Shown here: positions 1-61,501 of the stretch, one piece after another
Layout of the letters: the number at the start of each line of letters is the position of its first letter
Numbering within the stretch: the first letter of the stretch is position 1
Origin: Candidatus Angelobacter sp.
Lineage (GTDB): Bacteria; Acidobacteriota; Terriglobia; Terriglobales; Acidobacteriaceae
NCBI GenBank assembly: GCA_035294925.1
Contig: DATGJZ010000142.1
Location: 65,357 to 129,356, forward strand
Direction: 5' to 3'
DNA length: 64,000 bases
Position numbers and translations under genes: made by a program
Notes under the pieces: generated by a model
Seen by the model: the letters and a program-made list of their open reading frames with translations, nothing else
Told to the model about the DNA's origin: nothing
Databases searched by the model: none

Positions 1-2579
1 TCTCTTTCACTCCGAATCTTGCCGACGCCACGTTCAGCGGCGAGGAGGTGATTCAGGTCAACATCCAGAAGCCCACGAACAGCATCACGTTGAATTCGGC
101 GGAAATTCAGTTTCAGAAAGCGACCGTAACTCAGGGCACGAGCACTCAGGAAGCAAGGGTGAATCTTGATGCGCAAAAAGAGCAGGCCACGCTGACCGTA
201 GACCTGCAGTTGGCGCCTGGACCGGCAACCATTCAGGTTCAATTCACCGGAATCCTCAACGACAAGCTGCGCGGCTTTTATCTGGCCAAAACAAAACTCC
301 GCCGCTATGCCACCACGCAGTTCGAGTCCACCGATGCGCGGCGTGCCTTCCCGTCCTTTGACGAGCCTGCGCTCAAGGCCACGTTTGACATCACGCTGGT
401 GGTGGACAATGGCGATACAGCCATCTCCAATGGGCGGATCGTCTCCGATACTCCCGGCCCCGTTCCGGGCAAACGCACATTGAAATTTTCTCCTACACCC
501 AGGATGTCAACCTATCTGGTGGCCATGGCAGTGGGTGATTTTCAGTGCAATGAAGGTCAGGCCGATTCCATTCCCATCCGCGTCTGCGGCACGCCGGATA
601 AGAAGCCGCTGAGTGACGTGGCGCTGCGCTATGCTCAGGAGGTCCTGAAGTACTACGACCAGTATTACGGCATTAAATATCCTTACGGCAAACTGGATAT
701 CGTGGGCCTGCCTGATTTTGAGGCTGGAGCCATGGAGAATACGGCTGCCATTTTTTACCGTGAATCGTATCTCTTCATTGACGACAAGAATTCAGCGGTT
801 GACTCGCACGTTGCGGTCTTTCTCGTGCTGGCGCATGAAATGGCCCACCAGTGGTTTGGCGACCTGGTCACCATGAAGTGGTGGGACAACATCTGGCTCA
901 ACGAGGGCTTTGCCAACTGGATGGAGAAGAAGCCGATGCAGGCGCTGCATCCGGAATGGAATGCGGTGCTGGAGGCAGTCAAAGACACAAACCAGGCCCT
1001 GCAGATCGACGCCCTGCGCAATACGCATCCTATTCGCGCCAAAGCCGAGACGCCAGAAGAGATCAATGAGCTGTTCGACTCCATCTCCTATGACAAGGGC
1101 GCCGCCGTGATGAGGATGATCGAGTCCTACATCAGCCCCGAGGTCTTCCGTCGTGGAGTCAATGTCTATCTGCGAAAATTTCAATACAGCAATGCTACCG
1201 CTGAAGACTTTTGGGACACCATGTCCCAGGCCTCAGGTCGGCCGGTGGATAAGATCATGCCGACGTTTGTAAATCTCCCGGGCGAGCCTCTGGTCAAGGT
1301 GAAAGCCGAATGTGTGACTCCAAAGGCCCAGGCGGTTTCCAGCCGCAAGGGAAAGCGTTCACGAAAGCCGGTTCAACCCCACCCCAAGACCGAGATTACC
1401 CTTTCACAGCAACGCTTCCTCGTCGATGGAAGCGCGGACAACAGCAACCAGTTATGGGTGATTCCGGTTTGCATCAAAACGGACGACAACAAGCCTTTCT
1501 GCCAGCTTTTGGGAGAAAGGCAGCAGGTGGTGCCCGTGGTCGGTTGTGCTTCATGGGTTCTTACCAACGCAAATGCCGTTGGCTACTACCGTACGCAGTA
1601 TGAGTCTGATGGTTTGAAGAAACTGAGTGACGTGGCCCTGACCGGGTTGACCACCGCCGAACGTATGTCATTGGTCCAGGATGAGGCGGCGCTTGTCAGG
1701 GCGGGAAAAGATAAGGTCGGCTCCCTGCTGGACTTGATCAGCGCATTGAGTCGTGACCAGGAGCGCGCGCTGATGGATAGCTATGCTTTCGCGCTCGATT
1801 CCATTGATAACTATTTGGTCACGGCTGCGGATCGTGAAACCTATCATTCCTGGCTTCGCGCGGCTTTCCGGCCCATGCTGGCAAATGTGGGATGGACGCC
1901 GGCTGCAGGCGAAAGCGATGACACGCACGGCCTGCGCGCCGATCTGGTGATCATACTGGGCTTGGTGGCGCAGGACCCGGACACCATCAGGGAGGCCACC
2001 AGGCTGGCCAGGCAGTACCTGCAGAATCCTAACTCGGTGGATCCAACCCTGGCGCAAAGCATACTGCTGGTTGCCGCCCGTGCCGGGGACGCAGCGCTGC
2101 TCAATGAATACCTGGCGGCCATGCCGCACATGACTGCGCCGGAGCAGTATTACAACGTCGGTGGGGCGCTATCGGAATTTCGTGGTCCGGAGTTGGCTGG
2201 GCGCGTCCTGGAACTGGCCATCTCTCCTGCGGTTCGCAACCAGGATGCGCCGCACGTGATCTCCGCGGTGCTGGGCAATCCTGCCAACCAGGACTTTGCC
2301 TGGCAATGGATCAAGGCCCACTGGGCCGACGTGGAAAAGCAGATCACCATGTCCAGCGGCCCCGAGATCGTCGGTGGCGCCGGCAGTTTTTGCGATGCCG
2401 GGCGCCGGGATGATGTGCAGCGTTTCTTTACTGAACACAAAGTACCGTCATCAGAACGCCTTCTGAAACAGGTGACGGAGCGGATCAATGCCTGCATCGC
2501 CTATCGTGGCCACCAACAGAGTAATTTAGCCTCCTGGCTGGGACAACACGCCGGAGCCACAGTAGCAGGCCAGAACTGA
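1..2579 (+). CDS. pepN: Aminopeptidase N, M1-family zinc metallopeptidase (5' end outside window)
   Basis: Gluzincin motifs HEMAHQWFGD and WLNEGFA in the 843-aa ORF. The frame stays open upstream of the listed GTG back to base 3, so the true N-terminus lies outside the window. Confidence 0.9.
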   Translation, partial: SFTPNLADATFSGEEVIQVNIQKPTNSITLNSAEIQFQKATVTQGTSTQEARVNLDAQKEQATLTVDLQLAPGPATIQVQFTGILNDKLRGFYLAKTKLRRYATTQFESTDARRAFPSFDEPALKATFDITLVVDNGDTAISNGRIVSDTPGPVPGKRTLKFSPTPRMSTYLVAMAVGDFQCNEGQADSIPIRVCGTPDKKPLSDVALRYAQEVLKYYDQYYGIKYPYGKLDIVGLPDFEAGAMENTAAIFYRESYLFIDDKNSAVDSHVAVFLVLAHEMAHQWFGDLVTMKWWDNIWLNEGFANWMEKKPMQALHPEWNAVLEAVKDTNQALQIDALRNTHPIRAKAETPEEINELFDSISYDKGAAVMRMIESYISPEVFRRGVNVYLRKFQYSNATAEDFWDTMSQASGRPVDKIMPTFVNLPGEPLVKVKAECVTPKAQAVSSRKGKRSRKPVQPHPKTEITLSQQRFLVDGSADNSNQLWVIPVCIKTDDNKPFCQLLGERQQVVPVVGCASWVLTNANAVGYYRTQYESDGLKKLSDVALTGLTTAERMSLVQDEAALVRAGKDKVGSLLDLISALSRDQERALMDSYAFALDSIDNYLVTAADRETYHSWLRAAFRPMLANVGWTPAAGESDDTHGLRADLVIILGLVAQDPDTIREATRLARQYLQNPNSVDPTLAQSILLVAARAGDAALLNEYLAAMPHMTAPEQYYNVGGALSEFRGPELAGRVLELAISPAVRNQDAPHVISAVLGNPANQDFAWQWIKAHWADVEKQITMSSGPEIVGGAGSFCDAGRRDDVQRFFTEHKVPSSERLLKQVTERINACIAYRGHQQSNLASWLGQHAGATVAGQN

Positions 2580-14667: not shown

Positions 14668-16095
<1,428 letters not shown>

Positions 16096-16228
16096 GAACT
16101 TTCTTCTTTGCATCGAACGGAGTGAGAGATCCCTACTTTCATGAAAGCGAGTGCCGGGGTATCCCTCCCTCCGGTCGGGATAAACTACAAAAGCACCACT
16201 ATGCCAGGTTAGTTGGCCGTTGTGATGG

Positions 16229-16366
16229 TTACGAGTCGCCGAAGAGAGGGCTGGTAAAGTGGGTCACTACAGCATCGCCTTTTCCCAGAATCTTCTGCAG
16301 TTCCTCGGCGCTGAGATGGCGCGCATTTGCGCGGCTGAGTACGCGATTCCCGTTATTGTTTGGCAT
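16229..16366 (-). CDS. Candidate 45-aa small ORF (not in ORF track)
   Basis: The minus strand reads ATG...TAA encoding MPNNNGNRVLSRANARHLSAEELQKILGKGDAVVTHFTSPLFGDS. A strong RBS (gaaaggagaaacgt) precedes the ATG. It is convergent with eno. Confidence 0.3.
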   Translation of the reverse strand: MPNNNGNRVLSRANARHLSAEELQKILGKGDAVVTHFTSPLFGDS

Positions 16367-16442
16367 ACGTTTCTCCTTTCGAGAGTTGTTCCCCGCCAGG
16401 GATAGCGGGTTTTTATTCTAACAGCTCGCGGACCGCGCATAT

Positions 16443-17640
<1,198 letters not shown>

Positions 17641-18042
17641 GGCTCCGCTAGCCTCTCAGCGGTGCGTTGAGCCTCATGGAGAGATTGCTCCAGAAGATCA
17701 AACTGCGGATTGACAGGGCTTATCTCTATGCGGCAAGAAAAAAAGGCTCACTGGTCAGGTAAGCCATATTTCTCGTGTTACGTTGAAGTTGCGTTTCATA
17801 GAGCCGGAACGATTCCGTGCTGGAGAAGTACAGCGCTCTATTCGGGTGAGTTTCCCACAAAGCAAAGCCGGAAGGCCGCGTATTGCTCGTATCCCAGCCT
17901 TCCTTCCTGACGCAAGAATTCGCGCCCTCCCTTACGAAGCAGTAAGCGATTGCAAAGTTTTGGAGGTGGGTTCGTCGGCCCGCCTTGTTAAGAAGGCGCG
18001 AAAAAATCCCGCAAGAGAACCGCTGGGAATTTCGTATTAAAC

Positions 18043-19344
18043 TTGATTGGCGCTTTAGCTGCTCAAAAGAGGTCGAGTGTGGCAGGACGTCCACCAAAAT
18101 CTTCGCCAATTTCGGTTAGGACTGCGTTATCCAGGTTGCGCAAATCCAGGGAGCAAATTGCCGAGTTAACCCGGGAGCGACTATGGTCTGGACAAGCTGC
18201 CGAATGGCAGCGAAACCTAAGGAGCACTCTCATGCGCCTCGATCCTCAGGATTCAAGTCGTGTTGATGAATTTGACCGAATCTCCTTTGAGCCGCCCTTG
18301 GCAATCCTGAGCTTAGCTATAACATTGCAGATTGATGAACGGACCAAAGCTTTTCTAGCAGGGCTTGAGCAGGCAAAAGTGTTTCTGGATACTTGTATCC
18401 GCGAGCTAGAGAGACAGGGCAATGACACCGGCCCTAATGATATTCGTACACAATGGAAAATAGCACCGAACATGTTCCTGCCGCACAGCGCACCGTCGAG
18501 CCGCACTGCGTTAGAGGACACCGGATCTCAAACTATGACTGCCGAGCAAATCCTCAGTGAAATGAATTGGTACGAAACTGAATTCGCAGGTATCCTTTCC
18601 CGTTTCAACAGAAACCGGGACGGCGTTTGGATAGGAGAAGGCGACGATCCGATCTTTCGTCAATACGTGCGCGAAATCATTGACCTATTCAATGACGTGT
18701 TTGGGAACAACGTGTACTCCCAACAGATTGCTGAGGAGTTCAACCATGGAATCTCTAATTACACGAGTTCACCGTCATATAAATGCGTGGAAAATATCTT
18801 GTCCATTGTGCGTGCCGTGCTCACCCGCCTCAACCGTAACCCGAGATTATTGGAAGGGCAAGAAGCGCAAGAGAATGATGCCGGCCAACAGCGAGTCGAC
18901 GCTGTGCTTGGCATTTGTGATCGCTTCCACGAGGTCGCGCGGCAACTCCTTCATCGCCGTGAGAACCGATCCACTCTTGAAATCAAAGATGAGTATGACG
19001 TTCAGGATCTCCTTCATGCATTACTGCGCATTCACTTTGAGGACGTCCGCACGGAGGAATGGACGCCGTCTTACGGTGGAGGTTCGTCGCGGATGGATTT
19101 CCTTTTGAAGGAGTATGCGATTGTCGTAGAAGCGAAGATGGCACACAGGACGCTGAATACAAAGGAGGTGTCAGAACAACTCATAATCGACGCTGCCAAG
19201 TATCGACAACATCCGAACTGCAAGACCCTGATCTGTTTTGTATATGACCCCTCGGGGTTGTTGAAGAATCCTCGGGGAGTCGAGCGGGATCTAGCTAAAT
19301 TGTCCGGGGATGGACTAGATGTAATATGCCTTGTCATGCCATAA
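18043..19344 (+). CDS. Hypothetical protein with C-terminal PD-(D/E)xK (restriction-endonuclease-fold) nuclease signature
   Basis: The C-terminal about 120 aa carry an E...D...ExK arrangement: EYDVQDLLHALLRIHFEDV ... SSRMDFLL ... AIVVEAK. The N-terminal about 300 aa are helical and unassigned. G+C is low relative to the core genes. The listed start is TTG and is uncertain. Confidence 0.65.
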   Translation: MIGALAAQKRSSVAGRPPKSSPISVRTALSRLRKSREQIAELTRERLWSGQAAEWQRNLRSTLMRLDPQDSSRVDEFDRISFEPPLAILSLAITLQIDERTKAFLAGLEQAKVFLDTCIRELERQGNDTGPNDIRTQWKIAPNMFLPHSAPSSRTALEDTGSQTMTAEQILSEMNWYETEFAGILSRFNRNRDGVWIGEGDDPIFRQYVREIIDLFNDVFGNNVYSQQIAEEFNHGISNYTSSPSYKCVENILSIVRAVLTRLNRNPRLLEGQEAQENDAGQQRVDAVLGICDRFHEVARQLLHRRENRSTLEIKDEYDVQDLLHALLRIHFEDVRTEEWTPSYGGGSSRMDFLLKEYAIVVEAKMAHRTLNTKEVSEQLIIDAAKYRQHPNCKTLICFVYDPSGLLKNPRGVERDLAKLSGDGLDVICLVMP

Positions 19345-20093: not shown

Positions 20094-21128
20094 TTAGCGA
20101 CCTGACCTCGCCATGCGTTTCTTTTCAAGTGTTTGTGCCAGAGCTGCTGCAATTCTTCCTGGCCCAAAATCATGCACTATCTCCAGAAGCTTCTTCCTTT
20201 TTCTTTGGAGCCTATCTCTCAGATCACTGGGATCAGAATGCATCTCTCCCAGGTGCTCAGCGTACACCGGTCCTTTGATCAGGGACCGGTCTTTCAAGTC
20301 ATTGAAGCTTCCCAACCAACAACTGCGGCCAAGAACCGGCTTGAGTTGTGAAGTGCGCAATTCCAAATAACCATCGAATTCCGACGGCGAATTCTCAATC
20401 GCTTTCACTGAGGCCATCGTATATATGAATTTGATCATGTCACTTCTAAGCCATACCAAATCGGACCGCCAGTTGCCGCGGTGAATCAAGGAGTCTTTGA
20501 TTACCCAAAAAGCCCTTCCTTCGCTGATGATGTATCGGTCCTCGCGATGCTGAATGTCAAAATATCCTATTGTGTCTCGCATCCCATCTGGCGTTTCGGC
20601 CAGCAGGCTGTAAATCCACCAGCCCTCGAAAGCGTTGGTCTCCGATCGCGCTGTCTGAATATGCTTGTCCAACTTAGGCCAGAGCAGATCAAATCTTTCT
20701 CTCAGGAGTGAACTGCTAACCTGCAGACCGATGCGTTGGTTGACCGTAGAAACAAGATCGAATGTGCCTTCCTTCGTTGCAGTCTTTGCCTGAAAGTGCC
20801 TCAACGGACCAACTAAATCAGTGATCTGTAAATCGATTAGATATGGTATGACTGCACTTTTGTCGAGCGACTTAGAGAGAGCACCAGCCTCAAACATGAT
20901 CCAGGGAGATGTTTTGTTTTCACGAGTCAAGCACAGAATTCCGCAGTCTCGCCTTTCCAGTTGATGGCCGAGTTCTGGGATGGATCTACTGCCGGCTGCA
21001 ATATCGGTTTCAGAAAACCAAGGATCTGCGTGCTCCCCGAGCACCAGGGGGAGCCATTCCTTTAGGGCGTTGGCGACGAGCCTGCTGCGCTCTCCGCTCC
21101 AACTAAGGAAGATATTGGGCGCTTTCAT
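20094..21128 (-). CDS. TIR-domain protein with unassigned about 200-aa C-terminal domain
   Basis: The N-terminal about 135 aa (NIFLSWSGERSRLVANALKEWL...DCGILCLTRENKTSPWIMFEAGAL) match the bacterial TIR pattern, with a candidate catalytic Glu80. The C-terminal domain is not recognised. The start overlaps the upstream gene's stop (ATGA). Confidence 0.8.
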   Translation of the reverse strand: MKAPNIFLSWSGERSRLVANALKEWLPLVLGEHADPWFSETDIAAGSRSIPELGHQLERRDCGILCLTRENKTSPWIMFEAGALSKSLDKSAVIPYLIDLQITDLVGPLRHFQAKTATKEGTFDLVSTVNQRIGLQVSSSLLRERFDLLWPKLDKHIQTARSETNAFEGWWIYSLLAETPDGMRDTIGYFDIQHREDRYIISEGRAFWVIKDSLIHRGNWRSDLVWLRSDMIKFIYTMASVKAIENSPSEFDGYLELRTSQLKPVLGRSCWLGSFNDLKDRSLIKGPVYAEHLGEMHSDPSDLRDRLQRKRKKLLEIVHDFGPGRIAAALAQTLEKKRMARSGR

Positions 21129-23518
21129 TGCCGAGATCCGCCCTCGCCTTCATCGCTGATCAGCATCACGTTGGTTGTGACTTCGCCACGAGACACCGCG
21201 AGCCTGCCATCTTGGGACCATGCGAAGAACTGAATCTGGCCAGAGGTGAAATGAGTCAATGGTTCTGCGCGTTGCGTCGAGAGCGAATAGGACCAGATAT
21301 TTCCTATGCCATTGATGTGTTCAACGTAGCTTAAAGTTCGGTCATCCTTCCATTGTAGACGACTTCCCCAAGGAGAAAGATCGAAGTTATGGAGAACAAA
21401 TACGATCTCAGTCTCACGGTTCGGATCTCGCACCATCTCCCTGAACGCAAGTGGAATAATCTTTACGGCTCTCTTGCCAGCCACATAGGCGCGGACGGCG
21501 AGCAGTTGCCCGTTAGGCGAAATGGCCGGATCATATACATCCCGTTCGGGCGTCATTTGTTCAGGCGGTTCTTTCTTGTCGAGGGCAATGCGCCATATCG
21601 TCGTCTCCTTGCCAGGGCCTGATGCGTAAACGACCCAGTTTCCAAAGACTCGCGGATTGTAGTCAGAACCGCCGGAAGTAAGCCAGCTTAGTTCACGCGT
21701 CTGGATATCCATCTTCCAAATATTCGAGCCGTGCAAACCAGCCTGTTCATTCAAAAAACTACTGTTTGAGACAAATACCACAATTTTGCCATTGGCCGAA
21801 ACAGCCGGGGAAAAATAATTATCTTCACCACGGCCTAGCTCTCCCACAAGGCTGGCCGCGTTGTGTCCATCGGAGTCGACTATCCTTATTTTACTAGTGC
21901 GGCCATCTAGCGCCGTATAGACCAAACGGTTATCTGGAGTCCAAGTCAATCCGGCCATCCCGGCTGACTCCCCTTTGCGGAACTCGACAGGCATCGGGTC
22001 ATAAAAGACCTCTTTAGCGCTTTTCAGTGGCGCGAGTACCTGCAATTCGCATTTGACATCTTTTGCCAAGACAACGAAGTGCTTTGAGTGGTTACTTAGA
22101 TTCAGGACGTCATACTTTTGCGATTTATTGTCTATCAATTGCCTTGACCGACCGCTAGGATAGGCTACAAGAGAAAGCTGATTTGGAAATGCCGGATCTA
22201 GTGTCTCTGTAATGATACCGCTTCCATCTGAAAGCCAGACCAAGCTACTTTGAGTGTTCCACTCATCACCGGTCTTCAGGGGTTGCTCTTTGCCGTTAGC
22301 AGTGTCAACAACAACCAAATCTGATTTAGGAGAACCTGCCTGACCAGCGAGAAGTGCGATCAGCCTTCCGTTAGGCGACCAAGCTGCAGTCTGTGCATAG
22401 TAGCGACTTGGCGATTTGCGCTCCGCAAAAATTTGCACGGTCCGACCATTGTCAGATAAGGCATCCAGTTGCCGTATCACTATGGAAAATGTCGGGTCGC
22501 CACCACCCTCCCGGCGACGCACGAACGCATAACGCGTACCATCCGGAGAAAGCGTTATGTGGTCCGCCACTTGTCGTTGTACGAGTGTGCTCTCCCCTCC
22601 CAAGGCACCTATCTTGTAGAGCGCTGCCGGGCCACCCTCATTCGAGCCTTGGCCGTAGTAGATGTATTCTCCATCGGGAGAGAAGAGGATCTGCCGATAC
22701 GTAACGGCTGCGGAGCGCACAAGAATCTGGCCAGGTTCCGTCCAGTGCGCACTGACTTGTTTGATGTGAAGTTCTTGATGGCTAACCAGCGAACTGCGAT
22801 CGGAATCTGCCGTCTCAGCCTCGGCATACCTAGCATAAGCCAAGTATTTACCGTTAGGCGAGATCGCCGCCATTGTTACTTTGCTCCCACTGGTCAAAGG
22901 ATAGGCGTTGAGTGGATTCTGGCGAAAGGCTTTCTCGTAGTCGCTCAGCGGATATATCAGCCATGCAAGAAATGCAATTATGACCGTAGCTAATCCGAGC
23001 CCCCACGTAGATTTCAGAACTCGTCTTTTTAACGGCACACGCTTGGAAAGATCCTTGTCTACGGCGGGTGGTTCAGGGCGTGGTCGGTGCAAAGCAAGCA
23101 ACAGATCTCGGTAATTGCACTCGTAATTCTTACCATCACGGAGATCAATATAGGACTTCCCGAGTTGAGTCGAAGGGGCAGCTGTCTCCCAGGTGCCCCG
23201 TCTGAGTACAGGAACGAACTTTCGATGATTACCCTTTACGAAAACTTCACCTTGGATGATATCGCCCTCATAGGCGGCACCCCCGTCGTCGCCATCCGCT
23301 TTGAGTTTGTATTTGGGCGTACAAATAATTAAGACAAAATCATTCTCAGAGACTGCTTTAGCCATAGAGGCTGGCAATTGATCTCCTGGCGCGACGTGCC
23401 ACTGGTCGAGAGTTACCTCCACGCCGTCCTTGCACAGGCGGGTGGCCAATTGGCGAACCCAACTCATATGTGGGTCATCGTCCCAAGAATACGAGATGAA
23501 GGCTTTCGGGCTATCCAC
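21125..23518 (-). CDS. TIR - transmembrane helix - PD40/TolB-like beta-propeller protein
   Basis: N-terminal AFISYSWDDDPHMSWVRQLATRLCKDGVEVTLDQW...FVLIICTPKY is TIR-like. One TM helix (WGLGLATVIIAFLAWLIYPL) follows a KRVPLKRRVLK positive patch. At least 8 PD40-type motifs follow (ISPNGKYLAY, FSPDGEYIYY, LSPDGTRYAF, WSPNGRLIAL, WTPDNRLVY, VSANGKIVVF, ISPNGQLLAV, WSQDGRLAV). Confidence 0.85.
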   Translation of the reverse strand: MDSPKAFISYSWDDDPHMSWVRQLATRLCKDGVEVTLDQWHVAPGDQLPASMAKAVSENDFVLIICTPKYKLKADGDDGGAAYEGDIIQGEVFVKGNHRKFVPVLRRGTWETAAPSTQLGKSYIDLRDGKNYECNYRDLLLALHRPRPEPPAVDKDLSKRVPLKRRVLKSTWGLGLATVIIAFLAWLIYPLSDYEKAFRQNPLNAYPLTSGSKVTMAAISPNGKYLAYARYAEAETADSDRSSLVSHQELHIKQVSAHWTEPGQILVRSAAVTYRQILFSPDGEYIYYGQGSNEGGPAALYKIGALGGESTLVQRQVADHITLSPDGTRYAFVRRREGGGDPTFSIVIRQLDALSDNGRTVQIFAERKSPSRYYAQTAAWSPNGRLIALLAGQAGSPKSDLVVVDTANGKEQPLKTGDEWNTQSSLVWLSDGSGIITETLDPAFPNQLSLVAYPSGRSRQLIDNKSQKYDVLNLSNHSKHFVVLAKDVKCELQVLAPLKSAKEVFYDPMPVEFRKGESAGMAGLTWTPDNRLVYTALDGRTSKIRIVDSDGHNAASLVGELGRGEDNYFSPAVSANGKIVVFVSNSSFLNEQAGLHGSNIWKMDIQTRELSWLTSGGSDYNPRVFGNWVVYASGPGKETTIWRIALDKKEPPEQMTPERDVYDPAISPNGQLLAVRAYVAGKRAVKIIPLAFREMVRDPNRETEIVFVLHNFDLSPWGSRLQWKDDRTLSYVEHINGIGNIWSYSLSTQRAEPLTHFTSGQIQFFAWSQDGRLAVSRGEVTTNVMLISDEGEGGSRQ

Positions 23519-23597
23519 GTGCTGTTCCTTATCAGATTTCCAATTTGTGCGTTGAGAAAAAGTATCACGGTTTGGCTTAGAAACTAAAGCCTAATTT

Positions 23598-24262
23598 GAA
23601 GCAGTGATTCAGCGGGTGGCATCTTCGGGATTCTGGCCGGTTCCTTCGCTGCGCTCAGGATCTCGCCCTTCGACAAGCTTATTAATAGGGCAGGCTCTGC
23701 GGGTTCCTGCTCCGCTCACACCCGCAAGACGGCTCGACTTCCGCCCACAGAGCGGCGTCAGAATGACAGGCGTTGAGTTTCTGGTTCATGCAGCCACCTG
23801 TGCAAAAGAAAGAAGGCCGCAGGGCCTGACGGTTCTGTGCGAATTCCCTGAAGCAACGATTCAGCGGGTAGCATCTTCGGGATTCTGGGCAGTTCCTTCG
23901 CTGCGCTCAGGATCTCGCCTGCGGGTTCCCGCTCCGCTCACACCCGCAAGACGGCTCGACTTCCGCCCAAAGAGCGGGCGTCAGAATGACAAGGCGTTGA
24001 GTGTTTGGTTCATACAACCACCTCCGCAAGAGGTTGGTTGCGCCTGACACACTTCACGGGTTCCCCAAAACACTTTTTTCCACGCGAGACTCGCCCTGCA
24101 AGCGAGTGCCAGAGTGTAGGGATCCCAGGAGAATTTGGTAATTGGGAAAGTTGGTAAGAAGATCCTTCGGCTTCGCTCAGGATTTCGCCTACGGGCTCGG
24201 ACGCCCGCAAAACGGCTCAAGTCGGTAATTGAAAGTCAAAGACGAAATTCTCTCGACGCCTA
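23598..24262. repeat. Cluster of intergenic repeats (two full family-A units, one shortened A unit, one family-B unit)
   Basis: The unit ...gattcagcgggtRgcatcttcgggattctgg...ttccttcgctgcgctcaggatctcgcc...gctccgctcacacccgcaagacggctcgacttccgccca.agagcgg.cgtcagaatgaca.ggcgttgagt...ggttcat occurs at about 23600-23800 and 23850-24030. A degenerate copy lies at 24160-24222, and a ggtaattg-type family-B unit at 24127-24262. Confidence 0.85.
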
Positions 24263-24561
24263 CGGGTTGCGTTCGTTGAATTATTGCGGGGACATTGCGA
24301 GTCGCTCCGCAAAGCCCGCATCGAGGGGCGTAACATCAAGAAAACAGACAACGACGGAATGATGGCGGGCAGTACAAGAGTGCAGTTGTTGCGACCCGAA
24401 TCAAGAACCTGGCTATTCAGGAACTGCTCTAAGGCTGACGTTGCCCATAAGTTCGCCACAAAGCGAAGGGCGAGAGAATCGCCGGCTGCGGCACCTAACG
24501 TCTGCAGGTCAAGATCTCTTAGAGTGATTTTGTTGATGACAAGCTTATTGGGTTTCTTCAC
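24217..24561 (-). CDS. GG-leader-type peptide paralog with extended or degenerate core (possibly a pseudogene)
   Basis: GTG start with a gaggagg RBS. The first 26 aa, MKKPNKLVINKITLRDLDLQTLGAAAGD, are near-identical to the 26007-26165 peptide leader, but the GG is lost. The ORF then reads 85 more codons through repeat DNA and the antisense of an eno-tail remnant. Confidence 0.35.
   Translation of the reverse strand: MKKPNKLVINKITLRDLDLQTLGAAAGDSLALRFVANLWATSALEQFLNSQVLDSGRNNCTLVLPAIIPSLSVFLMLRPSMRALRSDSQCPRNNSTNATRRRRENFVFDFQLPT
24266..24314 (+). pseudogene. eno: Diverged remnant of the last about 16 codons of eno (fragment F2)
   Basis: 49 nt align without gaps to eno 16044-16092, with 38/49 identical by hand count. 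It translates as LRSLNYCGDIASRSAK versus the eno C-terminus [16 protein letters not shown]. Confidence 0.6.
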
Positions 24562-24585
24562 ATGGCCTCCTCAAGACAGATAAAA

Positions 24586-24790
24586 CTTAACAGGCTTGGA
24601 GAACCTTTTTCGTTAATGCTGAACACAAGGTCCCTCCAATTTACCCGCGCTGGCGCGCGAGTAAACTCTCGGGATGACGCCAGGATTTTTCACGGTCTTC
24701 ATTCAGTGAACAGTATTGCGGTTAATTGCTATTTGCTAAATACCCGTGTTCCACCCCGGCAGGTCGGCCCGCGCTACCATATCTCGATCT
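24586..24790. repeat. Family-C repeat plus duplicated 3' end of the HAF-like gene
   Basis: acaggcttggagaacc...aaggtccctccaatttacccgcgctggcgcgcgagtaaactctcgggatgacgccagg...gtgaacagtattgcgg...tatttgctaaatacccgtgttccaccccggcagg is a near copy of 26783-26965. The family-C core also recurs at about 32670-32730. Confidence 0.85.
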
Positions 24791-24828
24791 AACGCGTCTA
24801 TCTAACTTATGAAAAAAGCACGAGGCTT

Positions 24829-25580
24829 ATGAGAAAAGCACCAGGACTCGTAGCGATTGCACTGACGCTATTTGCGGTTGCCGTGGCGCCGGCGAAGGCC
24901 CAATCTCCAGTTGAGTTTGACCATGTTTGGATCATGGTTTCATCCAACGCTCCGGAGCGCGCGGCCCTGCAACGTGCAGGCTTGCTGATATCGCCGGACA
25001 TTAACCGCCACGACGGACAAGGAACCGCATCGATTACGGTGGAGTTCGAAAATGCTTTCCTGGAGTTGATGTGGCCTGACTCTACGGTTGCTGTAAAGCC
25101 TGGTTTAGAGCGGGCCGTTGAAAAGTTCCGGCATCGTATGCTCTGGCGCTCCAGCGGCTGGTGCCTCATCGGCATTGGGTTTCGCCGAATGACCCTGTCG
25201 GATGATGCCTTCCCGTTTCCAACCTGGTCTGTGAGTGCGCCCTGGTTGCCGGAAGGCTCGGCGATTGAAATGCTGACCCCTCGCGACGACACGGCAAGCC
25301 CATCATTGTTCATCAGCCCACGCGCTATGGCGGATCAAGGTGATCAAGCAGCACGAGCATCGCGCTTCCATCATCCCATCGGTGTTCATCGGGTAACTGC
25401 CGTTCGTCTCATATTCCCAAAGACGTATCGGCCTATCGAGCCGATTTCCTATCTAGACAGGTGCATGTTCTCGAAGTCCAACAAGGCGACGAATGGGCAG
25501 TGGAGTTGACATTCGACGGTGGCCTGAAGGGAAAATCGAGAGACCTCAGGCCAGATCTTCCTCTCGTTATTCGATATTGA
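24829..25580 (+). pseudogene. Secreted glyoxalase-like (VOC-fold) domain protein with an apparent frameshift near the 3' end
   Basis: Signal peptide, then EFDHVWIMVS...HDGQGTASITVEFENAFLELMWPD, which is typical of the glyoxalase-like domain family. The listed ORF stops at 25509. A different frame continues as ...VSAYRADFLSRQVHVLEVQQGDEWAVELTFDGGLKGKSRDLRPDLPLVIRY* to 25580, which looks like the authentic C-terminus. Confidence 0.6.
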
Positions 25581-25640
25581 TTCACAAGCGATCAAATCAT
25601 CAGGCTCTGCATTCCCGACAAGGCCCTTGCGTAGCATTCC

Positions 25641-25990
25641 CCAGGAGAATTTGGTAATTGGGAAAGTTGGTAAGTTGGTAATTGAAAGTCAAAGACGAAA
25701 TCCTCTCGACGCCTACGGGGTATCAAGGGCCGAGGCCCTTGGTTAGTCAGGAGAATCTGATCCAGTGCAGCATGAAGTTCCGCAAAAACTTTTTCGTGAG
25801 AACTCCCTGAAGCAGCGATTTAGCGGGTAGCATCCTCGGGATTCTGGGCGGTTCCTTCGCTGCGCTCAGGATCTCGCCTGTGGGTTCCCGCTCCGCTCAC
25901 ACCCGCAAGACGGCTCGACTTCCGCCCAAAGAACGGGCGTCAGAATGACAAGGCGTTGAGTGTTTGGTTCATGCAACCACCCCCGCAAGA
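25641..25990. repeat. Composite repeat block (family B + connector + family A)
   Basis: ccaggagaatttggtaattgggaaagttggtaag..ggtaattgaaagtcaaagacgaaatcctctcgacgcctacgggg...gtcaggagaatctgatccagtgcagcatgaagttccgcaaaaac.ttttcgtgagaactccctgaagcagcgatttagcgggtagcatcctcggg... is repeated almost exactly at 26329-26640. Confidence 0.85.
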
Positions 25991-26006
25991 GACGGCTACG
26001 CCCCCC

Positions 26007-26165
26007 TTATGGGCACTTGCAACGGGTAGGGCAGGTAAGAGCCGTGGCGCAAAGCTGATGTGTGGGACAAGGTGACGAGAAGCCGCCGGCTACGGCACCT
26101 AACGTCTGCTGGTCAAGATCTCTTAAAGTGATTTTCTTGATGACAAGCTTATTGGGTTTCTTCAC
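26007..26165 (-). CDS. 52-aa GG-leader, Cys/Thr/Ser-rich RiPP-like precursor peptide (not in ORF track)
   Basis: Hand translation gives GTG-start MKKPNKLVIKKITLRDLDQQTLGAVAGG|FSSPCPTHQLCATALTCPTRCKCP*. The RBS gaggagg lies about 5 nt upstream. The leader resembles the KL-x-L-x-K-x-T-L-R-x-L...VAGG double-glycine precursor type. The 24-aa core has 5 Cys, 4 Thr and 2 Ser. Confidence 0.6.
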   Translation of the reverse strand: MKKPNKLVIKKITLRDLDQQTLGAVAGGFSSPCPTHQLCATALTCPTRCKCP

Positions 26166-26328
26166 ATGGGCCTCCTCAAGACAGATAAAACATCCTGATG
26201 GTGAGTTTATTGAATTTGTCCAATTTGGGTTCCTTGTCCTTCACGGTCTGCTTTCTGAAAGATTGCGGAACTTGTTACGGCCCAAAATGGTACTGCCAGA
26301 AAGCAAGGAGTGTCAAATGCAGTTCATT

Positions 26329-26640
26329 TCCGTAATTGAAAGTCAAAGACGAAATCCTCTCGACGCCTACGGGATATCAAGAGCCGAGGCCCTGGTTAGT
26401 CAGGAGAATCTGATCCAGTGCAGCATGAAGTTCCGCAAAAACGTTTTCGTGAGAACTCCCTGAAGCAGCGATTTAGCGGGTAGCATCCTCGGGATTCTGG
26501 GCGGTTCCTTCGCTGCGCTCAGGATCTCGCCTTTCGACAAAGCTCAGGGCAGGCTCTGCGGGTTCCCGCTCCGCTCACACCCGCAGGACGGCTCGACTTC
26601 CGCCCAAAGAGCGGGCGACCGGGAATGAAGTAATGCGGCG
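26329..26640. repeat. Second copy of the composite B/A repeat block, nested inside a larger duplication
   Basis: Near-identical to 25676-25990. Its family-A part carries the same type of internal insert (tttcgacaaagctcagggcaggctc) as the A unit at 23665-23697. Confidence 0.85.
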
Positions 26641-26782
26641 TGAAGGGGCCACTCTTGTCCAGACCTGGCCGCCGCTCGCAGTTCACCAAAGTGAAACAAA
26701 AAGGAGCAGGCAACTGCCTGCCCGCCAATCACCTGCTCCCGCTGTTTACCAAGGGCCAACGGCTCATTGCAATACGGTTCAC

Positions 26783-26925
26783 TTGACAGGCTTGGAGAAC
26801 CTATTTCGTTAATGCTGAACGCAAGGTCCCTCCAATTTACCCGCGCTGACGTGCGAGCAAACTCTCGGGATGACGCCAGGGTTTTTCACAGTCTTCATTG
26901 AGTGAACAGTAATTGCGGCTCATTG
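26783..26925. repeat. Family-C repeat immediately downstream of the HAF-like gene
   Basis: Copy of 24586-24745 (acaggcttggagaacctatttcgttaatgctgaacgcaaggtccctccaatttacccgcgctgacgtgcgagcaaactctcgggatgacgccagg...). Confidence 0.85.
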
Positions 26926-27783
26926 CTATTTGCTACTTGCTATATACCCGTGTTCCACCCCGGCAGCAGTGAAGAAGTCGCCGACAATTGTGCCTTCGGC
27001 GTTAAGTCCGTCTCCATCCGTCGACGCAGCCCCGGGAAAATCCAGTTGAACAAATGTTCCATTCTGGTTTAGGAAGCCGTGCCCGTTCCCAGAGGCATCG
27101 GTGAAGCTGCCAATGATGCTTGTCCTGGCATTCAGGCCAAAGGCGAAGGCGGAGGTGGATCCCGGCGGATTTATCTGAGTGAAGGTATTACCAGTCTTGA
27201 GGAAGGCACGCTCCGCGCCCGACGGATCCACAAATGCGCCTACAATTTCGCCGCGATTGTTGATGCCGAACGCATTCGTATTTGTTCCGCCGGGAAAATC
27301 TATCTGCGTGAATGTGCCGGCAACATCAGTAAAGCCATGGGTGCGCCCGGCAGTATCGGTGAAGCTGCCCGCAATTTCCCGCGAGTCATTGATGCTAAGC
27401 GCCTGGGTAGAAACAGCCCCGGGGAAATCTATTTGGATAAAGGTGGCGCCTTCGCGAAGTAATCCGTGCTGGACCCCGGACGCATCTGTAAATGCGCCGA
27501 CAATGTCATCGCGGTTGTTCAGCCCTACGGTCTTGGTGGCCGTAGCGCTGGGAAAATCCAGCTGCGTGAAAGTGCTTCCGCTATGGAAGAAGCCATGCTG
27601 CCGCCCGGCCTGATCGAAGAAGAAACCGACAATATCTCCACGTGCATTGATGTTATCGGCCTCGGTCGAGGCGCTGTTGGGAACGTCAAAGAGCTGAAAG
27701 TTGAAAGAGGAGGTTTGCGCATGGATACCGGACGGCAGGATGCCGAGAGCCAGCAGCATAGCCGGCAGGAATTTTTTCAACAT
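26926..27783 (-). CDS. Secreted repeat protein, HAF-family-like extracellular repeats
   Basis: Signal peptide MLKKFLPAMLLALGILPSGIHAQ, then about 6 repeats of about 43 aa (F.QIDFPGA..T.A.GIN.RGEIVG.F.D..G..HGF). The ORF-track N-terminal extension (27784-27939) merely translates ggtaattgg repeats. Confidence 0.75.
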   Translation of the reverse strand: MLKKFLPAMLLALGILPSGIHAQTSSFNFQLFDVPNSASTEADNINARGDIVGFFFDQAGRQHGFFHSGSTFTQLDFPSATATKTVGLNNRDDIVGAFTDASGVQHGLLREGATFIQIDFPGAVSTQALSINDSREIAGSFTDTAGRTHGFTDVAGTFTQIDFPGGTNTNAFGINNRGEIVGAFVDPSGAERAFLKTGNTFTQINPPGSTSAFAFGLNARTSIIGSFTDASGNGHGFLNQNGTFVQLDFPGAASTDGDGLNAEGTIVGDFFTAAGVEHGYIASSK

Positions 27784-27859
27784 GATTTTGTCCTTTCGGG
27801 GAAAACACGTAATTGGTAATTGGTAATTGGTAATTAGTATTGAGTAATTAGCAAAGGAG

Positions 27860-28145
27860 AGAATTTGGTAATTGGGTAACTTGGTAAGTTGGTAATTGAA
27901 AGTCAAAGGCAAAATCTCGCGATGCAAACGGGATATCAAGGGCGGCTCGACTTCCGCCCAAAAAAGCGGGCGTCAGAATGACAAAGGGTTGAGTTCTGGT
28001 TCATGCGACCATCTCTGCAAAAGAAAGAAGGCGCAGGGCCTGACGGTTATGTGAGAATTCCCTGGAGCGGCATGGTCAGCTTCAACAGCTTCGGGGTCTT
28101 TCGACTACGCCCGCCACGGCGGGCTCGCTCAAGATGACAGGGTAA
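27860..28145. repeat. Family-B unit plus partial family-A units
   Basis: gagaatttggtaattgggtaacttggtaagttggtaattgaaagtcaaaggcaaaatctcgcg..., then ggctcgacttccgcccaaaaaagcgggcgtcagaatgacaaagggttgagttctggttcatg...aaaagaaagaaggcgcagggcctgacggtt, which matches 23738-23840. Confidence 0.8.
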
Positions 28146-32502: not shown

Positions 32503-32864
32503 TAGCTCTTGGCCCTTGGCCTTTGGCCCTTGGGTCATGCATGGTTGTTCTCTCTTTTTGGTTGGGGCTGACCATTTGGTTTGGGCAATCAAGTACTGAA
32601 CTCCTGAAGACGAAAGCCAACGGCTAAAGGCAAATGCGGTTTACAGCGTTTCGGAACCGATTGGGTTAATGGGTAGCGCAAGGTCCCTCCGATTTACCCG
32701 CGCTCGCGCGCGAGTCAACCCTCGGGATGACGGAGCGTTTTGGGGTTAAGGAGCGTAACGACGAGTCCAATATTCCGGCGGCCCCACTACAAGGGAAGAA
32801 ACAACCATACACGAGCCGATGGCCGTTTGCTCATCGCTATTTGCTGTTTTGCTACACTCCTTTC

Positions 32865-59930: not shown

Positions 59931-60222
59931 ACTCAGCATTCAGCCTGCGGACGGCCTTGGCAGTCATTCAAATCGTCGTGGGCATGGAAACGAGAAGTTC
60001 AAAAAACCTTACCAGTGATGACGGTGATCAGACTGATTTCGACTGATTAAGACCAAGGAGAAGAGTGAGATCGCCTGGAAAGGGGATTTTTTCTCGCGTT
60101 CTCAGCATTCAGCCCGCGGACGGCCCTGGCGATCCTTGAACAGATCGTCGGCATGGAAACGGAAACTTCAAAAAACCTTACCACTGATGACGGTGGTTTG
60201 GCTGATTTCCACAGATAGGACC
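59931..60222. repeat. Two direct copies of an about 120-bp family-D intergenic repeat
   Basis: cagcattcagcc.gcggacggcc.tggc...ggcatggaaacg.gaa..ttcaaaaaaccttacca.tgatgacggtg.t....ctgatttc.ac.gat occurs at about 59931-60052 and 60102-60222. Partial copies lie at about 63775-63838 and 12554-12625. Confidence 0.8.
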
Positions 60223-61215: not shown

Positions 61216-61501
61216 GTTGGTAACTGGGTAATTGAAAAGGCAAAAACCTCGTGAAAATCAACTTTGTCCGCAGCGGACGAAGTTAAGGCCCTTTGTTTTC
61301 AATGCGTGAAATTGTTCTGCGCGGAACAGTTTAGGGCCCCTAAAGTTGCGCTTCCTGGCGTTTTATGGTTGCTGGAATGCGAATGCGAGCTTTTCCCAGA
61401 TTGAATAAATTCGGCTAAAATAAAATGTTAAGTCTGCCTAGACCCTTTGGGTAATCATCAGGCGCTGCATTTCACCCGGATTATTTTTAGGAGAGAGAAT
61501 T

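What the first reader, a model, noticed from the sequence alone, without database searches (positions are those of the whole stretch)
26007..26165. Unannotated 52-aa GG-leader, Cys/Thr/Ser-rich RiPP-like precursor with no maturase nearby
Seen: the minus-strand GTG at 26165, preceded by gaggagg, opens a 52-codon frame encoding MKKPNKLVIKKITLRDLDQQTLGAVAGG-FSSPCPTHQLCATALTCPTRCKCP. It falls below the ORF-track length cut-off. Established: leaders of the form MKK..KL.L.K.TLR.L......VAGG are typical of double-glycine natural-product precursors, which are cleaved by C39-peptidase ABC exporters and often modified by radical-SAM or lanthionine-forming enzymes. A 24-aa core with 5 Cys, 4 Thr and 2 Ser is what one expects of a thioether- or disulfide-rich peptide. 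Unusual: no exporter, protease or modifying enzyme lies within the window, and the gene is embedded in repeat DNA downstream of a secreted HAF-like repeat protein on the same strand.
Basis: partly seen in the sequence, partly recalled or inferred. Interest (0 to 1): 0.7.

Follow-up and report, generated by a model that had tools for sequence, protein, structure and literature searches.

The report
Orphan class I lanthipeptide precursor gene
A small, unannotated gene in a soil acidobacterium (Candidatus Angelobacter) encodes the precursor of a thioether-ringed peptide (a lanthipeptide) whose modifying enzymes very probably lie elsewhere in the same genome, so it is a new member of a known kind and not a new system.

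Summary
The 52-codon minus-strand ORF (26165..26007; GTG start, GAGGAGG Shine-Dalgarno) is real and not a chance ORF. A family HMM built without it scores it 73.5 bits (E=1e-21). It belongs to a large, mostly acidobacterial family (at least 276 protein clusters). Members have a conserved leader, MKKxxKLxIKK(V/I)TLR(D/N)LDxxxLxAVAGG, and a hypervariable Cys/Thr/Ser-rich core. The ORF just passes NCBIfam NF038153 (class I lanthipeptide leader).

Every family locus with enzymes nearby (15 of 15 groups) carries LanB and/or LanC; the well-flanked ones usually also have a C39-ABC exporter and an HlyD-like protein. Eleven of 26 assessable loci are orphans like this one. One 244-kb contig carries a solitary precursor 66 kb from its cluster.

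The window has no maturase. A LanB-LanC cluster with two family precursors (one annotated "class I lanthipeptide [Ca. Angelobacter sp.]") comes from the same sequencing run. It shares the window's accession series, short repeat families and tetranucleotide signature. It very probably belongs to the same genome.

A second leader copy at 24561 is broken at the Gly-Gly codons. Interest is modest.

The parts
26007..26165 (-). Complete precursor ORF (lanA-like), 52 codons plus stop, GTG start
   Evidence: Leave-one-out family HMM 73.5 bits, E=1.2e-21. NF038153 22.3 bits against cutoff 22. Best of the six reading frames by codon likelihood.
26082..26165 (-). Leader peptide, codons 1-28: MKKPNKLVIKKITLRDLDQQTLGAVAGG, ending in the Gly-Gly cleavage motif
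   Evidence: All seven invariant family columns are present (L7, K11, T13, L14, L17, A26, G27). Fits the LxLxKx5L...GG class I leader motif of PMC7268733. Codon LLR +7.1.
26010..26081 (-). Core peptide, codons 29-52: FSSPCPTHQLCATALTCPTRCKCP (5 Cys, 4 Thr, 2 Ser)
   Evidence: The family median core has 5 Cys and 6-7 Ser+Thr. It shares a PCPT...TC...C pattern with LanA-2 of the Angelobacter LanBC cluster. Unique in the window.
26171..26177 (-). Shine-Dalgarno GAGGAGG, 5 nt before the GTG
   Evidence: An equivalent AAGGAG(G) plus a GTG start is present at the three other intact Angelobacter precursors.
26287..26316 (-). Sigma-70-like promoter candidate TTGACA-18-TACCAT, 121 nt upstream of the start
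   Evidence: The relaxed pattern TTGACN-16..19-TANNNT occurs only twice in 128 kb of window sequence (both strands). It lies upstream of 4 of 4 intact precursors (window, L098_A1, L098_A2, L100) and not upstream of copy 2. Function is inferred, not shown.
24217..24561 (-). Copy 2: the same SD, GTG and leader (VKKPNKLVINKITLRDLDLQTLGAAAG), then Asp and 86 unrelated residues that run into a REP element; probable pseudogene
   Evidence: DNA 24480-24586 is 95% identical to 26084-26191. Homology stops at the Gly-Gly codons, with one nucleotide missing there, and no frame holds a Cys-rich core. HMM 40.1 bits from the leader alone. No promoter-like site upstream.
26781..26966 (-). Distal upstream block (3' end of the HAF gene plus intergenic DNA), duplicated at 24585-24762 directly upstream of copy 2
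   Evidence: 89-93% identity.
26192..26780 (-). 589-bp segment present in copy 1 and absent from copy 2; it contains the promoter candidate and a REP/MITE-like element (26332-26617)
   Evidence: Alignment of the two copies. 26332-26617 is 89% identical to 25678-25939.
25640..25991 (.). REP/MITE-like repeat array beginning 16 nt after the stop codon
   Evidence: 25796-25991 is 95% identical to 23837-24032; 25678-25939 is 89% identical to 26332-26617.
26704..26726 (-). Terminator-like hairpin plus T-run downstream of the HAF gene, suggesting the peptide is not co-transcribed with it
   Evidence: This is a consensus match only; the number of such sites in the region equals the shuffle expectation.
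26926..27939 (-). Neighbouring HAF-repeat secreted protein (probable true start near 27783); context only, not functionally linked
   Evidence: TIGR02913 61.8 bits. Signal-peptide-like N-terminus. Orthologues in L001 and L002 have no peptide downstream.

Best explanation
The ORF is a functional stand-alone lanA gene, that is, the precursor of a class I lanthipeptide.

Proposed mechanism:
1. The gene is transcribed from its own sigma-70-like promoter (26316-26287) and translated from GTG behind a strong SD.
2. The 28-residue LxLxKx5L...GG leader directs the peptide to a LanB dehydratase. LanB acts through glutamyl-tRNA-dependent glutamylation and elimination, converting some of the six core Ser/Thr to Dha/Dhb.
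3. A zinc-dependent LanC cyclase adds the five core Cys to these residues, forming up to five (methyl)lanthionine rings.
4. LanB and LanC are supplied in trans from a LanB-LanA-LanC-LanA cluster on another contig of, very probably, the same Ca. Angelobacter genome.
5. The leader is then removed after Gly27-Gly28, probably by a C39-peptidase ABC exporter with an HlyD-like partner, as in most clusters of this family.

The gene is one of several dispersed paralogues with conserved leaders and hypervariable cores. The neighbouring copy at 24561 is a dead duplicate.

Shown here: the ORF and its signals; family membership; the family's association with LanB/LanC/PCAT; orphan precedents; and the existence of the partner cluster. 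Inferred: assignment of that cluster to the same genome, expression, in-trans processing, ring formation and the cleavage enzyme.
For: - Family: exhaustive phmmer found 25 peptides of 46-74 aa with the same leader and Cys/Thr-rich cores. A profile search found 276 clusters. Sources name some of them 'class I lanthipeptide'.
- Leave-one-out HMM: 73.5 bits. NF038153 is passed by the ORF and matched by 21 of 26 family members.
- Family context: L006/7 and L010/11 carry LanB, 6-10 precursors, an HlyD-like protein, a C39-ABC exporter and LanC. Of 53 locus groups, 15 have LanB and/or LanC and 11 are clean orphans with at least 8 kb on both sides.
- Same-contig precedent: on ERZ25039587 contig_58261 the cluster lies at 13-33 kb and the solitary precursor P0100 at about 90 kb.
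- Partner cluster L098=L099=L014: LanB 1108 aa (Lant_dehydr_N 513 bits, Lant_dehydr_C 226 bits) and LanC 439 aa (LANC_like 107 bits; HG, WCYG and CHG motifs retained).
- Its LanA-2 is HLJ26455.1, 'class I lanthipeptide [Candidatus Angelobacter sp.]'.
- Same-genome indicators: same run SRR5579872 as the window's contigs; same HLJ accession series and organism label; highest tetranucleotide correlation of all loci, 0.971; at least three shared short repeat families; and codon fit of 0.22 per codon, within the window genes' range.
- Expression signals: GTG start, AAGGAG(G) SD and a TTGACN-17/18-TANNAT site are shared by all four intact Angelobacter precursors. That pattern occurs only twice in 128 kb of window sequence.
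- Composition: a positive leader and negative core codon score is also seen in the cluster-encoded LanAs.
- Paralogues: leaders are about 69% identical and cores about 27%.
Against: - No transcript, peptide or modification data exist.
- NF038153 is passed by only 0.3 bits.
- Codon likelihood is below that of housekeeping genes (-7.8 bits against +16±8 for 50-codon chunks). It is the lowest of the four Angelobacter precursors.
- The gene sits in repeat-rich, rearranging DNA next to a dead copy.
- No orthologue was found in related Angelobacter loci. The closest relatives are only about 57% identical, so purifying selection on this core cannot be shown.
- Assignment of L098 to the same genome is circumstantial, because no bin list could be read.
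- No C39 exporter lies within 10 kb of the L098 cluster. One was found only in a different Angelobacter MAG (P0150 = HET6843018.1).
Confidence: 0.72

Rival explanations
1. Non-functional relic. The ORF is a recently duplicated or translocated lanA copy that is still intact only because it is short and young. It is not expressed or not processed, and it is decaying like its neighbour.
For: - The adjacent copy 2 is broken exactly at the Gly-Gly codons.
- A truncated leader-only remnant also exists in the partner cluster.
- The locus is saturated with REP/MITE-like repeats.
- No orthologue exists in L001-L005.
- Its codon score is the lowest of the four Angelobacter precursors.
- A 589-bp repeat-bearing segment separates the gene from the upstream block that copy 2 retains.
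Against: - All signals are intact: the promoter-like site shared with the three other intact precursors but absent from the dead copy, the strong SD, all invariant leader residues, the GG site and a family-typical core.
- Orphan precursors are common and intact in this family. Some are identical across several MAGs, for example P0100 in four assemblies.
Confidence: 0.18
2. A GG-leader peptide matured by something other than LanB/LanC. It could be a radical-SAM-modified RiPP of the TIGR04149 type, or an unmodified disulfide-rich bacteriocin-like peptide that is only cleaved and exported by a C39 ABC transporter.
For: - TIGR04149 gives a weak hit (14.7 bits), and 12 of 26 family members match it at E<0.01.
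- PGAP names one family member 'TIGR04149 family rSAM-modified RiPP'.
- One family cluster (L006) has a B12-binding radical SAM next to LanC.
- Five Cys could in principle form disulfides.
Against: - The TIGR04149 score is below its cutoff of 25.
- An rSAM gene occurs in only 1 of 15 enzyme-linked locus groups, and there it accompanies LanB and LanC.
- Every enzyme-linked locus has LanB and/or LanC.
- No rSAM or PCAT is present in the window.
Confidence: 0.08
3. A chance ORF inside repeat DNA, with no coding meaning.
For: Gene callers did not call it. Many spurious ORFs overlap the REP elements here.
Against: - Leave-one-out HMM E=1.2e-21.
- The ORF itself lies in unique sequence between repeats.
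- It is the best of the six frames.
- The overlapping 133-aa plus-strand ORF has no family match.
Confidence: 0.01

Closest known systems
Class I lanthipeptide precursors with the LxLxKx5L...Gly-Gly leader (Bacteroidetes type, the pinensin-related family; NCBIfam NF038153 lant_leader_L1a)
   Same: The leader motif fits: L7-x-I9-x-K11-x5-L17 ... G27G28. NF038153 is passed. Family clusters encode LanB, LanC and a C39 double-glycine peptidase ABC exporter, as Walker et al. 2020 (PMC7268733) describe for Bacteroidetes.
   Different: The phylum is Acidobacteriota (Ca. Angelobacter, Ca. Sulfotelmatobacter). LanB is full-length (1100-1108 aa), not split as in pinensin. This gene is physically separated from any lan enzyme. 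No product of this acidobacterial family has been characterised in the papers I could search.
Prochlorosins (class II lanthipeptides of Prochlorococcus/Synechococcus; ProcM plus many ProcA genes)
   Same: It works alike in these respects: many paralogous precursors with a conserved leader and hypervariable core (leader about 69% identical, core about 27%); GG-type leader end; and precursor genes located far from the synthetase and presumably served in trans (PMC7268733 on distant procA genes).
   Different: It is not a member. The leader is not of the Nif11/NHLP type. The enzymes are separate LanB and LanC (class I), not a LanM. Substrate promiscuity of the acidobacterial LanB/LanC is untested.
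Nisin-type class I lanthipeptides (FNLD-box leader, NisB/NisC/NisT/NisP)
   Same: The enzyme pair is the same: a LanB dehydratase with Lant_dehydr_N and Lant_dehydr_C, and a LanC cyclase with conserved zinc-ligand motifs. The core is Ser/Thr/Cys-rich and suited to several thioether rings.
   Different: [quoted passage not shown] The leader ends in GG, implying C39 cleavage and not a subtilisin-like LanP. The host is Gram-negative, with an HlyD-like export partner in most family clusters.
TIGR04149 (GG_sam_targ_CFB) radical-SAM-modified RiPP precursors
   Same: The N-terminal leader shape is similar (MKK..L.L.K..I..L......GG). There is a weak HMM hit, and automated pipelines confuse the two families.
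   Different: The score is below the cutoff. The family's conserved neighbours are LanB and LanC, not an rSAM/SPASM maturase.

Membership tests
Class I lanthipeptide precursor, NF038153 (lant_leader_L1a) leader type | Leader HMM score at or above the curated cutoff (22 bits) | tested here: met
   22.3 bits, E=1.1e-4, residues 1-28 on model positions 1-32. This is marginal. 21 of 26 close relatives also match.
Class I lanthipeptide precursor, NF038153 (lant_leader_L1a) leader type | LxLxKx5L motif and a leader ending in Gly-Gly (PMC7268733) | tested here: met
   L7-V-I9-K-K11-ITLRD-L17 ... A26-G27-G28. The second L of the motif is Ile here, as in most family members.
Class I lanthipeptide precursor, NF038153 (lant_leader_L1a) leader type | Core contains both Ser/Thr and Cys in numbers that allow (Me)Lan rings | tested here: met
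   6 Ser/Thr and 5 Cys in 24 residues. The family median is 5 Cys and 6-7 Ser+Thr.
Class I lanthipeptide precursor, NF038153 (lant_leader_L1a) leader type | Genomic association with LanB and LanC | tested here: inconclusive
   Not met in cis: none in the 64-kb window. Met for the family: 15 of 15 enzyme-linked locus groups. A LanB-LanC cluster from the same run, with the same organism label and sequence signature, exists. Its membership of the same genome is circumstantial.
Class I lanthipeptide precursor, NF038153 (lant_leader_L1a) leader type | Peptide is actually dehydrated and cyclised to thioether rings | not testable with these tools
   Needs co-expression and mass spectrometry.
Class I lanthipeptide precursor, NF038153 (lant_leader_L1a) leader type | A double-glycine (C39) protease/exporter is available to remove the leader | tested here: inconclusive
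   Present in most family clusters. Absent from the window and from within 10 kb of L098. A homologue 82% identical to the L006 PCAT exists in another Ca. Angelobacter MAG (HET6843018.1).
TIGR04149 rSAM-modified RiPP (GG_sam_targ_CFB) | HMM score at or above the cutoff (25 bits) | tested here: not met
   14.7 bits.
TIGR04149 rSAM-modified RiPP (GG_sam_targ_CFB) | Adjacent radical SAM maturase | tested here: not met
   None in the window. Only 1 of 15 enzyme-linked family groups has an rSAM (B12-binding), and it accompanies LanB and LanC.
Prochlorosin-type (class II, Nif11/NHLP leader, LanM) | Nif11- or NHLP-type leader | tested here: not met
   NCBIfam at E<=10 returned only NF038153 and TIGR04149.
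Prochlorosin-type (class II, Nif11/NHLP leader, LanM) | Bifunctional LanM synthetase | tested here: not met
   Family clusters carry a separate LanB (1100-1108 aa) and a stand-alone LanC (439-459 aa).
Prochlorosin-type (class II, Nif11/NHLP leader, LanM) | Many dispersed precursors with hypervariable cores served by one synthetase | tested here: inconclusive
   Dispersal and hypervariability are shown. Processing by a single enzyme pair is not testable here.

The most novel reading that the evidence does not exclude
Soil Acidobacteria (Ca. Angelobacter, Ca. Sulfotelmatobacter and relatives) may run a class I counterpart of the prochlorosin system. In this reading, one LanB/LanC pair serves a genome-wide, rapidly turning-over library of solitary and arrayed precursors with conserved leaders and hypervariable cores. 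New members would arise and die through repeat-mediated duplication, with breakpoints at the leader-core junction, as seen for copy 1 and copy 2 here.
Probability: 0.4. Interest if true: 0.55.

Novelty: new member of a known kind. Interest (0 to 1): 0.35.

Why it matters
- Cluster-centred genome mining (antiSMASH and RODEO windows of a few genes around LanC) and ab initio gene callers both miss precursors like this one. The lanthipeptide repertoire of abundant, uncultured soil Acidobacteria is therefore under-counted.
- The family HMM built here, plus the shared GTG/SD/promoter signature, gives a direct way to find such orphans.
- If the dispersed precursors are all processed by one LanB/LanC pair, that pair would be a naturally promiscuous class I system. 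This would be useful for peptide engineering and would parallel ProcM.
- For this single gene, the result is an annotation fix and a candidate for heterologous production, not a new principle.

Tried and rejected
- Single-sequence word-indexed homology search: nothing. Only exhaustive phmmer and a profile search worked.
- Exact look-ups of the 52-aa and 114-aa products: not on record.
- Related genomes through the HAF neighbour (L001-L005): the HAF orthologues are 33-82% identical, but there is no peptide downstream.
- Extending the window by looking up edge genes: only short Logan contigs came back.
- Rfam on the window: only a tRNA. The third partial copy of the upstream block (32616-32741) is another REP-type element, not a riboswitch.
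- RNA fold of the 3' flank: not more stable than shuffles (z=+1.0) and no clear intrinsic terminator.
- Codon-likelihood test: inconclusive alone, because Cys/Thr/Pro-rich cores score negative even in annotated LanAs.
- P0001, a 4622-aa phmmer hit, is a repetitive junk ORF.
- The HAF protein as a functional partner: rejected, because co-occurrence is not conserved.
- The overlapping plus-strand 133-aa ORF as the real gene: rejected. It has no family match and lies largely in the REP element.
- Literature searches found no description of acidobacterial class I lanthipeptides or of orphan class I precursors. The Ca. Angelobacter genus paper does not mention RiPPs.
- The last homology search, for a C39 exporter, found one only in a different Angelobacter MAG.
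Full report
OBSERVATION. On the minus strand, GTG at 26165 is preceded by GAGGAGG (26177-26171). It opens a 52-codon frame that ends with TAA at 26009-26007. The product is VKKPNKLVIKKITLRDLDQQTLGAVAGG-FSSPCPTHQLCATALTCPTRCKCP.

The window (55.8% G+C) comes from a Candidatus Angelobacter sp. MAG in the Acidobacteriota, order Terriglobales. Its HtpG and enolase are HLJ30723.1 and HLJ30691.1. The HAF-repeat neighbour is 79-82% identical to genes in two Ca. Angelobacter MAGs.

The exact 52-aa product is not in the 15-billion-protein collection, although that collection holds this MAG's other proteins. JGI's gene calls on a 100%-identical contig (L092) call the 114-aa ORF next door but not this one. 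"Unannotated" therefore holds.

IS IT A GENE? A single-sequence indexed search found nothing. An exhaustive phmmer scan of 1.84 billion representatives found 25 peptides of 46-74 aa at E<1e-3. They share the same leader and have Cys/Thr/Pro-rich cores.

Their alignment (A3) gives the consensus MKKxxKLxIKKVTLRDLDEPxLxAxAGG. The invariant columns are L7, K11, T13, L14, L17, A26 and G27, and the window peptide has all of them.

A profile search returned 276 protein clusters, almost all 46-80 aa. Sources name some of them "class I lanthipeptide [Candidatus Sulfotelmatobacter sp.]", "TIGR04149 family rSAM-modified RiPP" or "natural product precursor".

An HMM built from the 25 relatives alone scores the window ORF 73.5 bits (E=1.2e-21) among 1877 small-ORF start variants of the window. 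The only other hit is a second leader copy at 24561. NCBIfam NF038153 (lant_leader_L1a, "class I lanthipeptide") is passed narrowly at 22.3 bits against a cutoff of 22. TIGR04149 is not passed (14.7 against 25), and Pfam has nothing. Of the 26 aligned peptides, 21 match NF038153 and 12 match TIGR04149.

The codon-usage likelihood makes this frame the best of six, but it is below housekeeping genes (-7.8 bits; leader +7.1, core -14.9). Annotated cluster-encoded LanAs show the same split: leader +10 to +18, core -5 to -13. This explains why gene finders skip such ORFs.

WHAT THE FAMILY DOES. Genomic context was read for family members.
- P0046 (L006/L007) sits among six precursors between a 1100-aa LanB (Lant_dehydr_N+C) and an HlyD-like protein, a C39-peptidase ABC exporter, a LanC and a B12-radical-SAM enzyme.
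- P0030 (L010/L011) sits in a LanB / 5 precursors / HlyD-like / C39-ABC / LanC / 5 precursors cluster.
- P0088 (L008/L009) is one of five tandem precursors with no lan enzyme in reach.

A metagenome scan added 78 loci. After collapsing redundancy there are 53 locus groups:
- 15 have LanB and/or LanC next to the precursors. The well-flanked ones usually also have the exporter pair.
- 11 are clean orphans with at least 8 kb of unrelated genes on both sides.
- 27 lie on contigs too short to judge.

Orphan and cluster-linked peptides do not differ in leader form or core composition; the median is 5 Cys and 6-7 Ser+Thr in both. Paralogues within a locus keep the leader (mean 69% identity) and not the core (27%).

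One 244.5-kb contig (ERZ25039587 contig_58261) carries the LanB/LanC/PCAT cluster at 13-33 kb. It also carries a solitary precursor (P0100) at about 90 kb, between a TetR regulator and a DNA methylase and downstream of metK, ahcY and amt. A precursor far from its enzymes is therefore a normal state in this family.

WHERE IS THE MACHINERY FOR THIS GENE? It is not in the window. Pfam scans of all large ORFs show Lon, ClpXP, trigger factor, enolase, acyl-CoA carboxylase, HtpG, transporters, TIR proteins and similar genes. They show no LanB/C/M, radical SAM or C39 exporter. tblastn with cluster enzymes hits only an ABC-F ATPase weakly.

However, the closest cluster-linked relative (P0007/P0135, 56% identical over residues 2-42 including a shared PCPT core start) is HLJ26455.1, [quoted passage not shown]. 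Its locus is L098 = L099 = L014, 100% identical in three assemblies. The locus reads as follows:
- PadR regulator.
- LanB, 1108 aa.
- LanA-1: ...VIAGG|CCPTVSFPRTCLCPTSANDTCAQKKG.
- LanC, 439 aa.
- LanA-2: ...AVAGG|LSHLPCPTITCTCNKTICIACA.
- A truncated leader remnant.

LanB has both dehydratase domains. LanC keeps the HG / WCYG / CHG motifs that carry the catalytic His and zinc ligands in solved LanC structures.

Five lines of evidence suggest this cluster belongs to the window's genome:
1. L099 comes from run SRR5579872, as do the window's own short contigs.
2. The organism label and HLJ accession series are the same.
3. Its tetranucleotide correlation with the window, 0.971, is the highest of all loci of 10 kb or longer. 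It exceeds that of a 16-kb piece of the window itself.
4. At least three different short repeat families are shared with the window.
5. Its codon fit is within the window genes' range.

This is strong circumstantial evidence, not proof. A further solitary precursor has the leader closest to the window's (P0014, MKKPNKLAIKKVTLRDLD...). It lies on a 155-kb contig of the same JGI metagenome as the window's twin contig, with a correlation of 0.959.

No C39 exporter lies within 10 kb of L098. One that is 82% identical to the L006 exporter exists in a different Ca. Angelobacter MAG (HET6843018.1). The leader-removing enzyme for this genome therefore remains open.

EXPRESSION SIGNALS. All four intact putative Angelobacter precursors (window copy 1, L098_A1, L098_A2, L100) share three features: a GTG start, an AAGGAG(G) SD, and a TTGACN-17/18-TA(A/C)NAT element 49-121 nt upstream. 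The relaxed pattern occurs only twice in the 128 kb of both window strands, and one of those two is the site at 26316-26287. A terminator-like hairpin with a T-run (26726-26704) follows the HAF gene, which suggests the peptide gene is transcribed on its own. These are sequence inferences only.

LOCAL ANATOMY. The region 23.5-28.1 kb is packed with REP/MITE-like repeats, which flank the gene on both sides: 25640-25991 starts 16 nt after the stop, and 26332-26617 lies upstream.

A second copy of the SD and leader lies at 24586-24480, 95% identical to 26191-26084. A block at 24585-24762 directly precedes it and is 89-93% identical to 26781-26966, which includes the 3' end of the HAF gene. Relative to copy 2, copy 1 has an extra 589 bp (26192-26780) that holds the promoter candidate.

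In copy 2, homology stops within a few nucleotides of the Gly-Gly codons and one nucleotide is missing there. The frame reads AAAGD and then continues for 86 unrelated residues into a REP element. No frame holds a Cys-rich core. Copy 2 is therefore a dead duplicate. Either it was frameshifted and decayed, or it is a partial duplication whose breakpoint lies at the leader-core junction. The independent JGI contig ends at 26442 inside a repeat, so the join to the HAF gene depends on one assembly.

MECHANISM (best explanation, confidence about 0.72). The ORF is a stand-alone lanA. It is transcribed from its own promoter. The LxLxKx5L...GG leader is recognised by LanB, which dehydrates core Ser/Thr. 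LanC then closes up to five thioether rings onto the five Cys. LanB and LanC act in trans from the L098-type cluster. The leader is cut after G28 by a C39 ABC exporter and the product is secreted. The enzymology follows from established knowledge of class I lanthipeptides. The leader type and its association with a C39 protease were described for Bacteroidetes by Walker et al. 2020 (PMC7268733).

Rival explanations:
- A still-intact but silent relic (about 0.18).
- Maturation by another route, such as rSAM modification or disulfides only (about 0.08).
- A chance ORF (about 0.01).

COMPARISON AND NOVELTY. The peptide meets the sequence-level criteria of the NF038153 / LxLxKx5L-GG class I LanA family. 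Physical linkage to LanB and LanC is not met in cis and is only circumstantially met in trans. The chemistry is untestable here.

It works like the prochlorosin system in having dispersed, hypervariable precursors served in trans. It is not a member of that system, because it has no Nif11/NHLP leader and uses LanB plus LanC and not LanM. It is not a TIGR04149 member.

The searchable literature holds no description of acidobacterial class I lanthipeptide products or of orphan class I precursors. That is absence of evidence in a partial library. I rate the gene as a new member of a known kind, with interest 0.35.

The most novel reading not excluded is a class I, prochlorosin-like combinatorial library with repeat-driven birth and death of precursors in soil Acidobacteria. 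I give it probability about 0.4 and interest about 0.55 if true.

Noticed in passing
window 20094-23518 (-): Two overlapping genes form a candidate anti-phage defence pair. One is a 344-aa TIR protein (PADLOC TIR-TM, 158.6 bits). The other is a 797-aa bSEFIR/TIR protein with a WD40/PD40 beta-propeller (PADLOC bSEFIR, 187 bits). They lie just downstream of the repeat-rich peptide locus.
   Followed up: partly
window 14776-19344 (+): The intact enolase (14776-16095) is followed by a 195-aa enolase C-terminal fragment (16882-17469). The fragment repeats 134 nt of the intact gene at 94% identity (15876-16009 and 17145-17278). Next comes a 433-aa protein with a DpnII/MboI-type restriction endonuclease domain (PADLOC Aga_Helical-REase). 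This looks like an insertion scar beside a housekeeping gene.
   Followed up: partly
window ~63470-63688 (+): An MbtH-like gene (72 aa, PF03621) follows htpG directly. A non-ribosomal peptide synthetase cluster probably starts at or beyond the right edge of the window, which fits the BGC-rich reputation of Ca. Angelobacter.
   Followed up: no
window 23597-24266, 25640-25991, 26332-26617, 27859-28068, 32616-32741, 60001-60216, 61197-61247: Several families of 40-290-nt REP/MITE-like intergenic repeats, some also present in L098/L014. An independent JGI assembly breaks inside one at window 26442. They served here as a lineage fingerprint. Their nature (REP, MITE or other) was not resolved.
   Followed up: partly
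L098 10240-10308 (+): A truncated leader-only remnant (MKEPGKLAIKKVTLRDLNHTH*) lies directly after LanA-2 in the Angelobacter LanBC cluster. It is a second example of precursor-gene decay in what is probably the same genome.
   Followed up: no
L006 16826-18313 (+): A B12-binding radical SAM enzyme (495 aa) lies immediately after LanC in a Ca. Sulfotelmatobacter cluster of this family. It could add a further tailoring step such as C-methylation to these lanthipeptides. It was seen in only 1 of 15 cluster groups.
   Followed up: no
L098 (whole locus, ±10 kb around LanB/LanC): Unlike most family clusters, the Angelobacter LanB-LanC cluster has no C39-ABC exporter or HlyD-like gene nearby. A PadR regulator and a HAAS-domain protein sit next to LanB instead.
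   Followed up: partly
window 35595-36851 (+): A 418-aa ORF with DUF6531 and a YD repeat (an RHS-type toxin N-terminal fragment) with no full RHS core nearby. It may be a truncated or orphan polymorphic-toxin module.
   Followed up: no
window 24829-25509 (+) and 24807-25313 (-): Two overlapping ORFs on opposite strands lie between the two leader copies. JGI calls the 226-aa plus-strand one, which has a weak Glyoxalase_3 hit below threshold. Neither has a confident family assignment.
   Followed up: no
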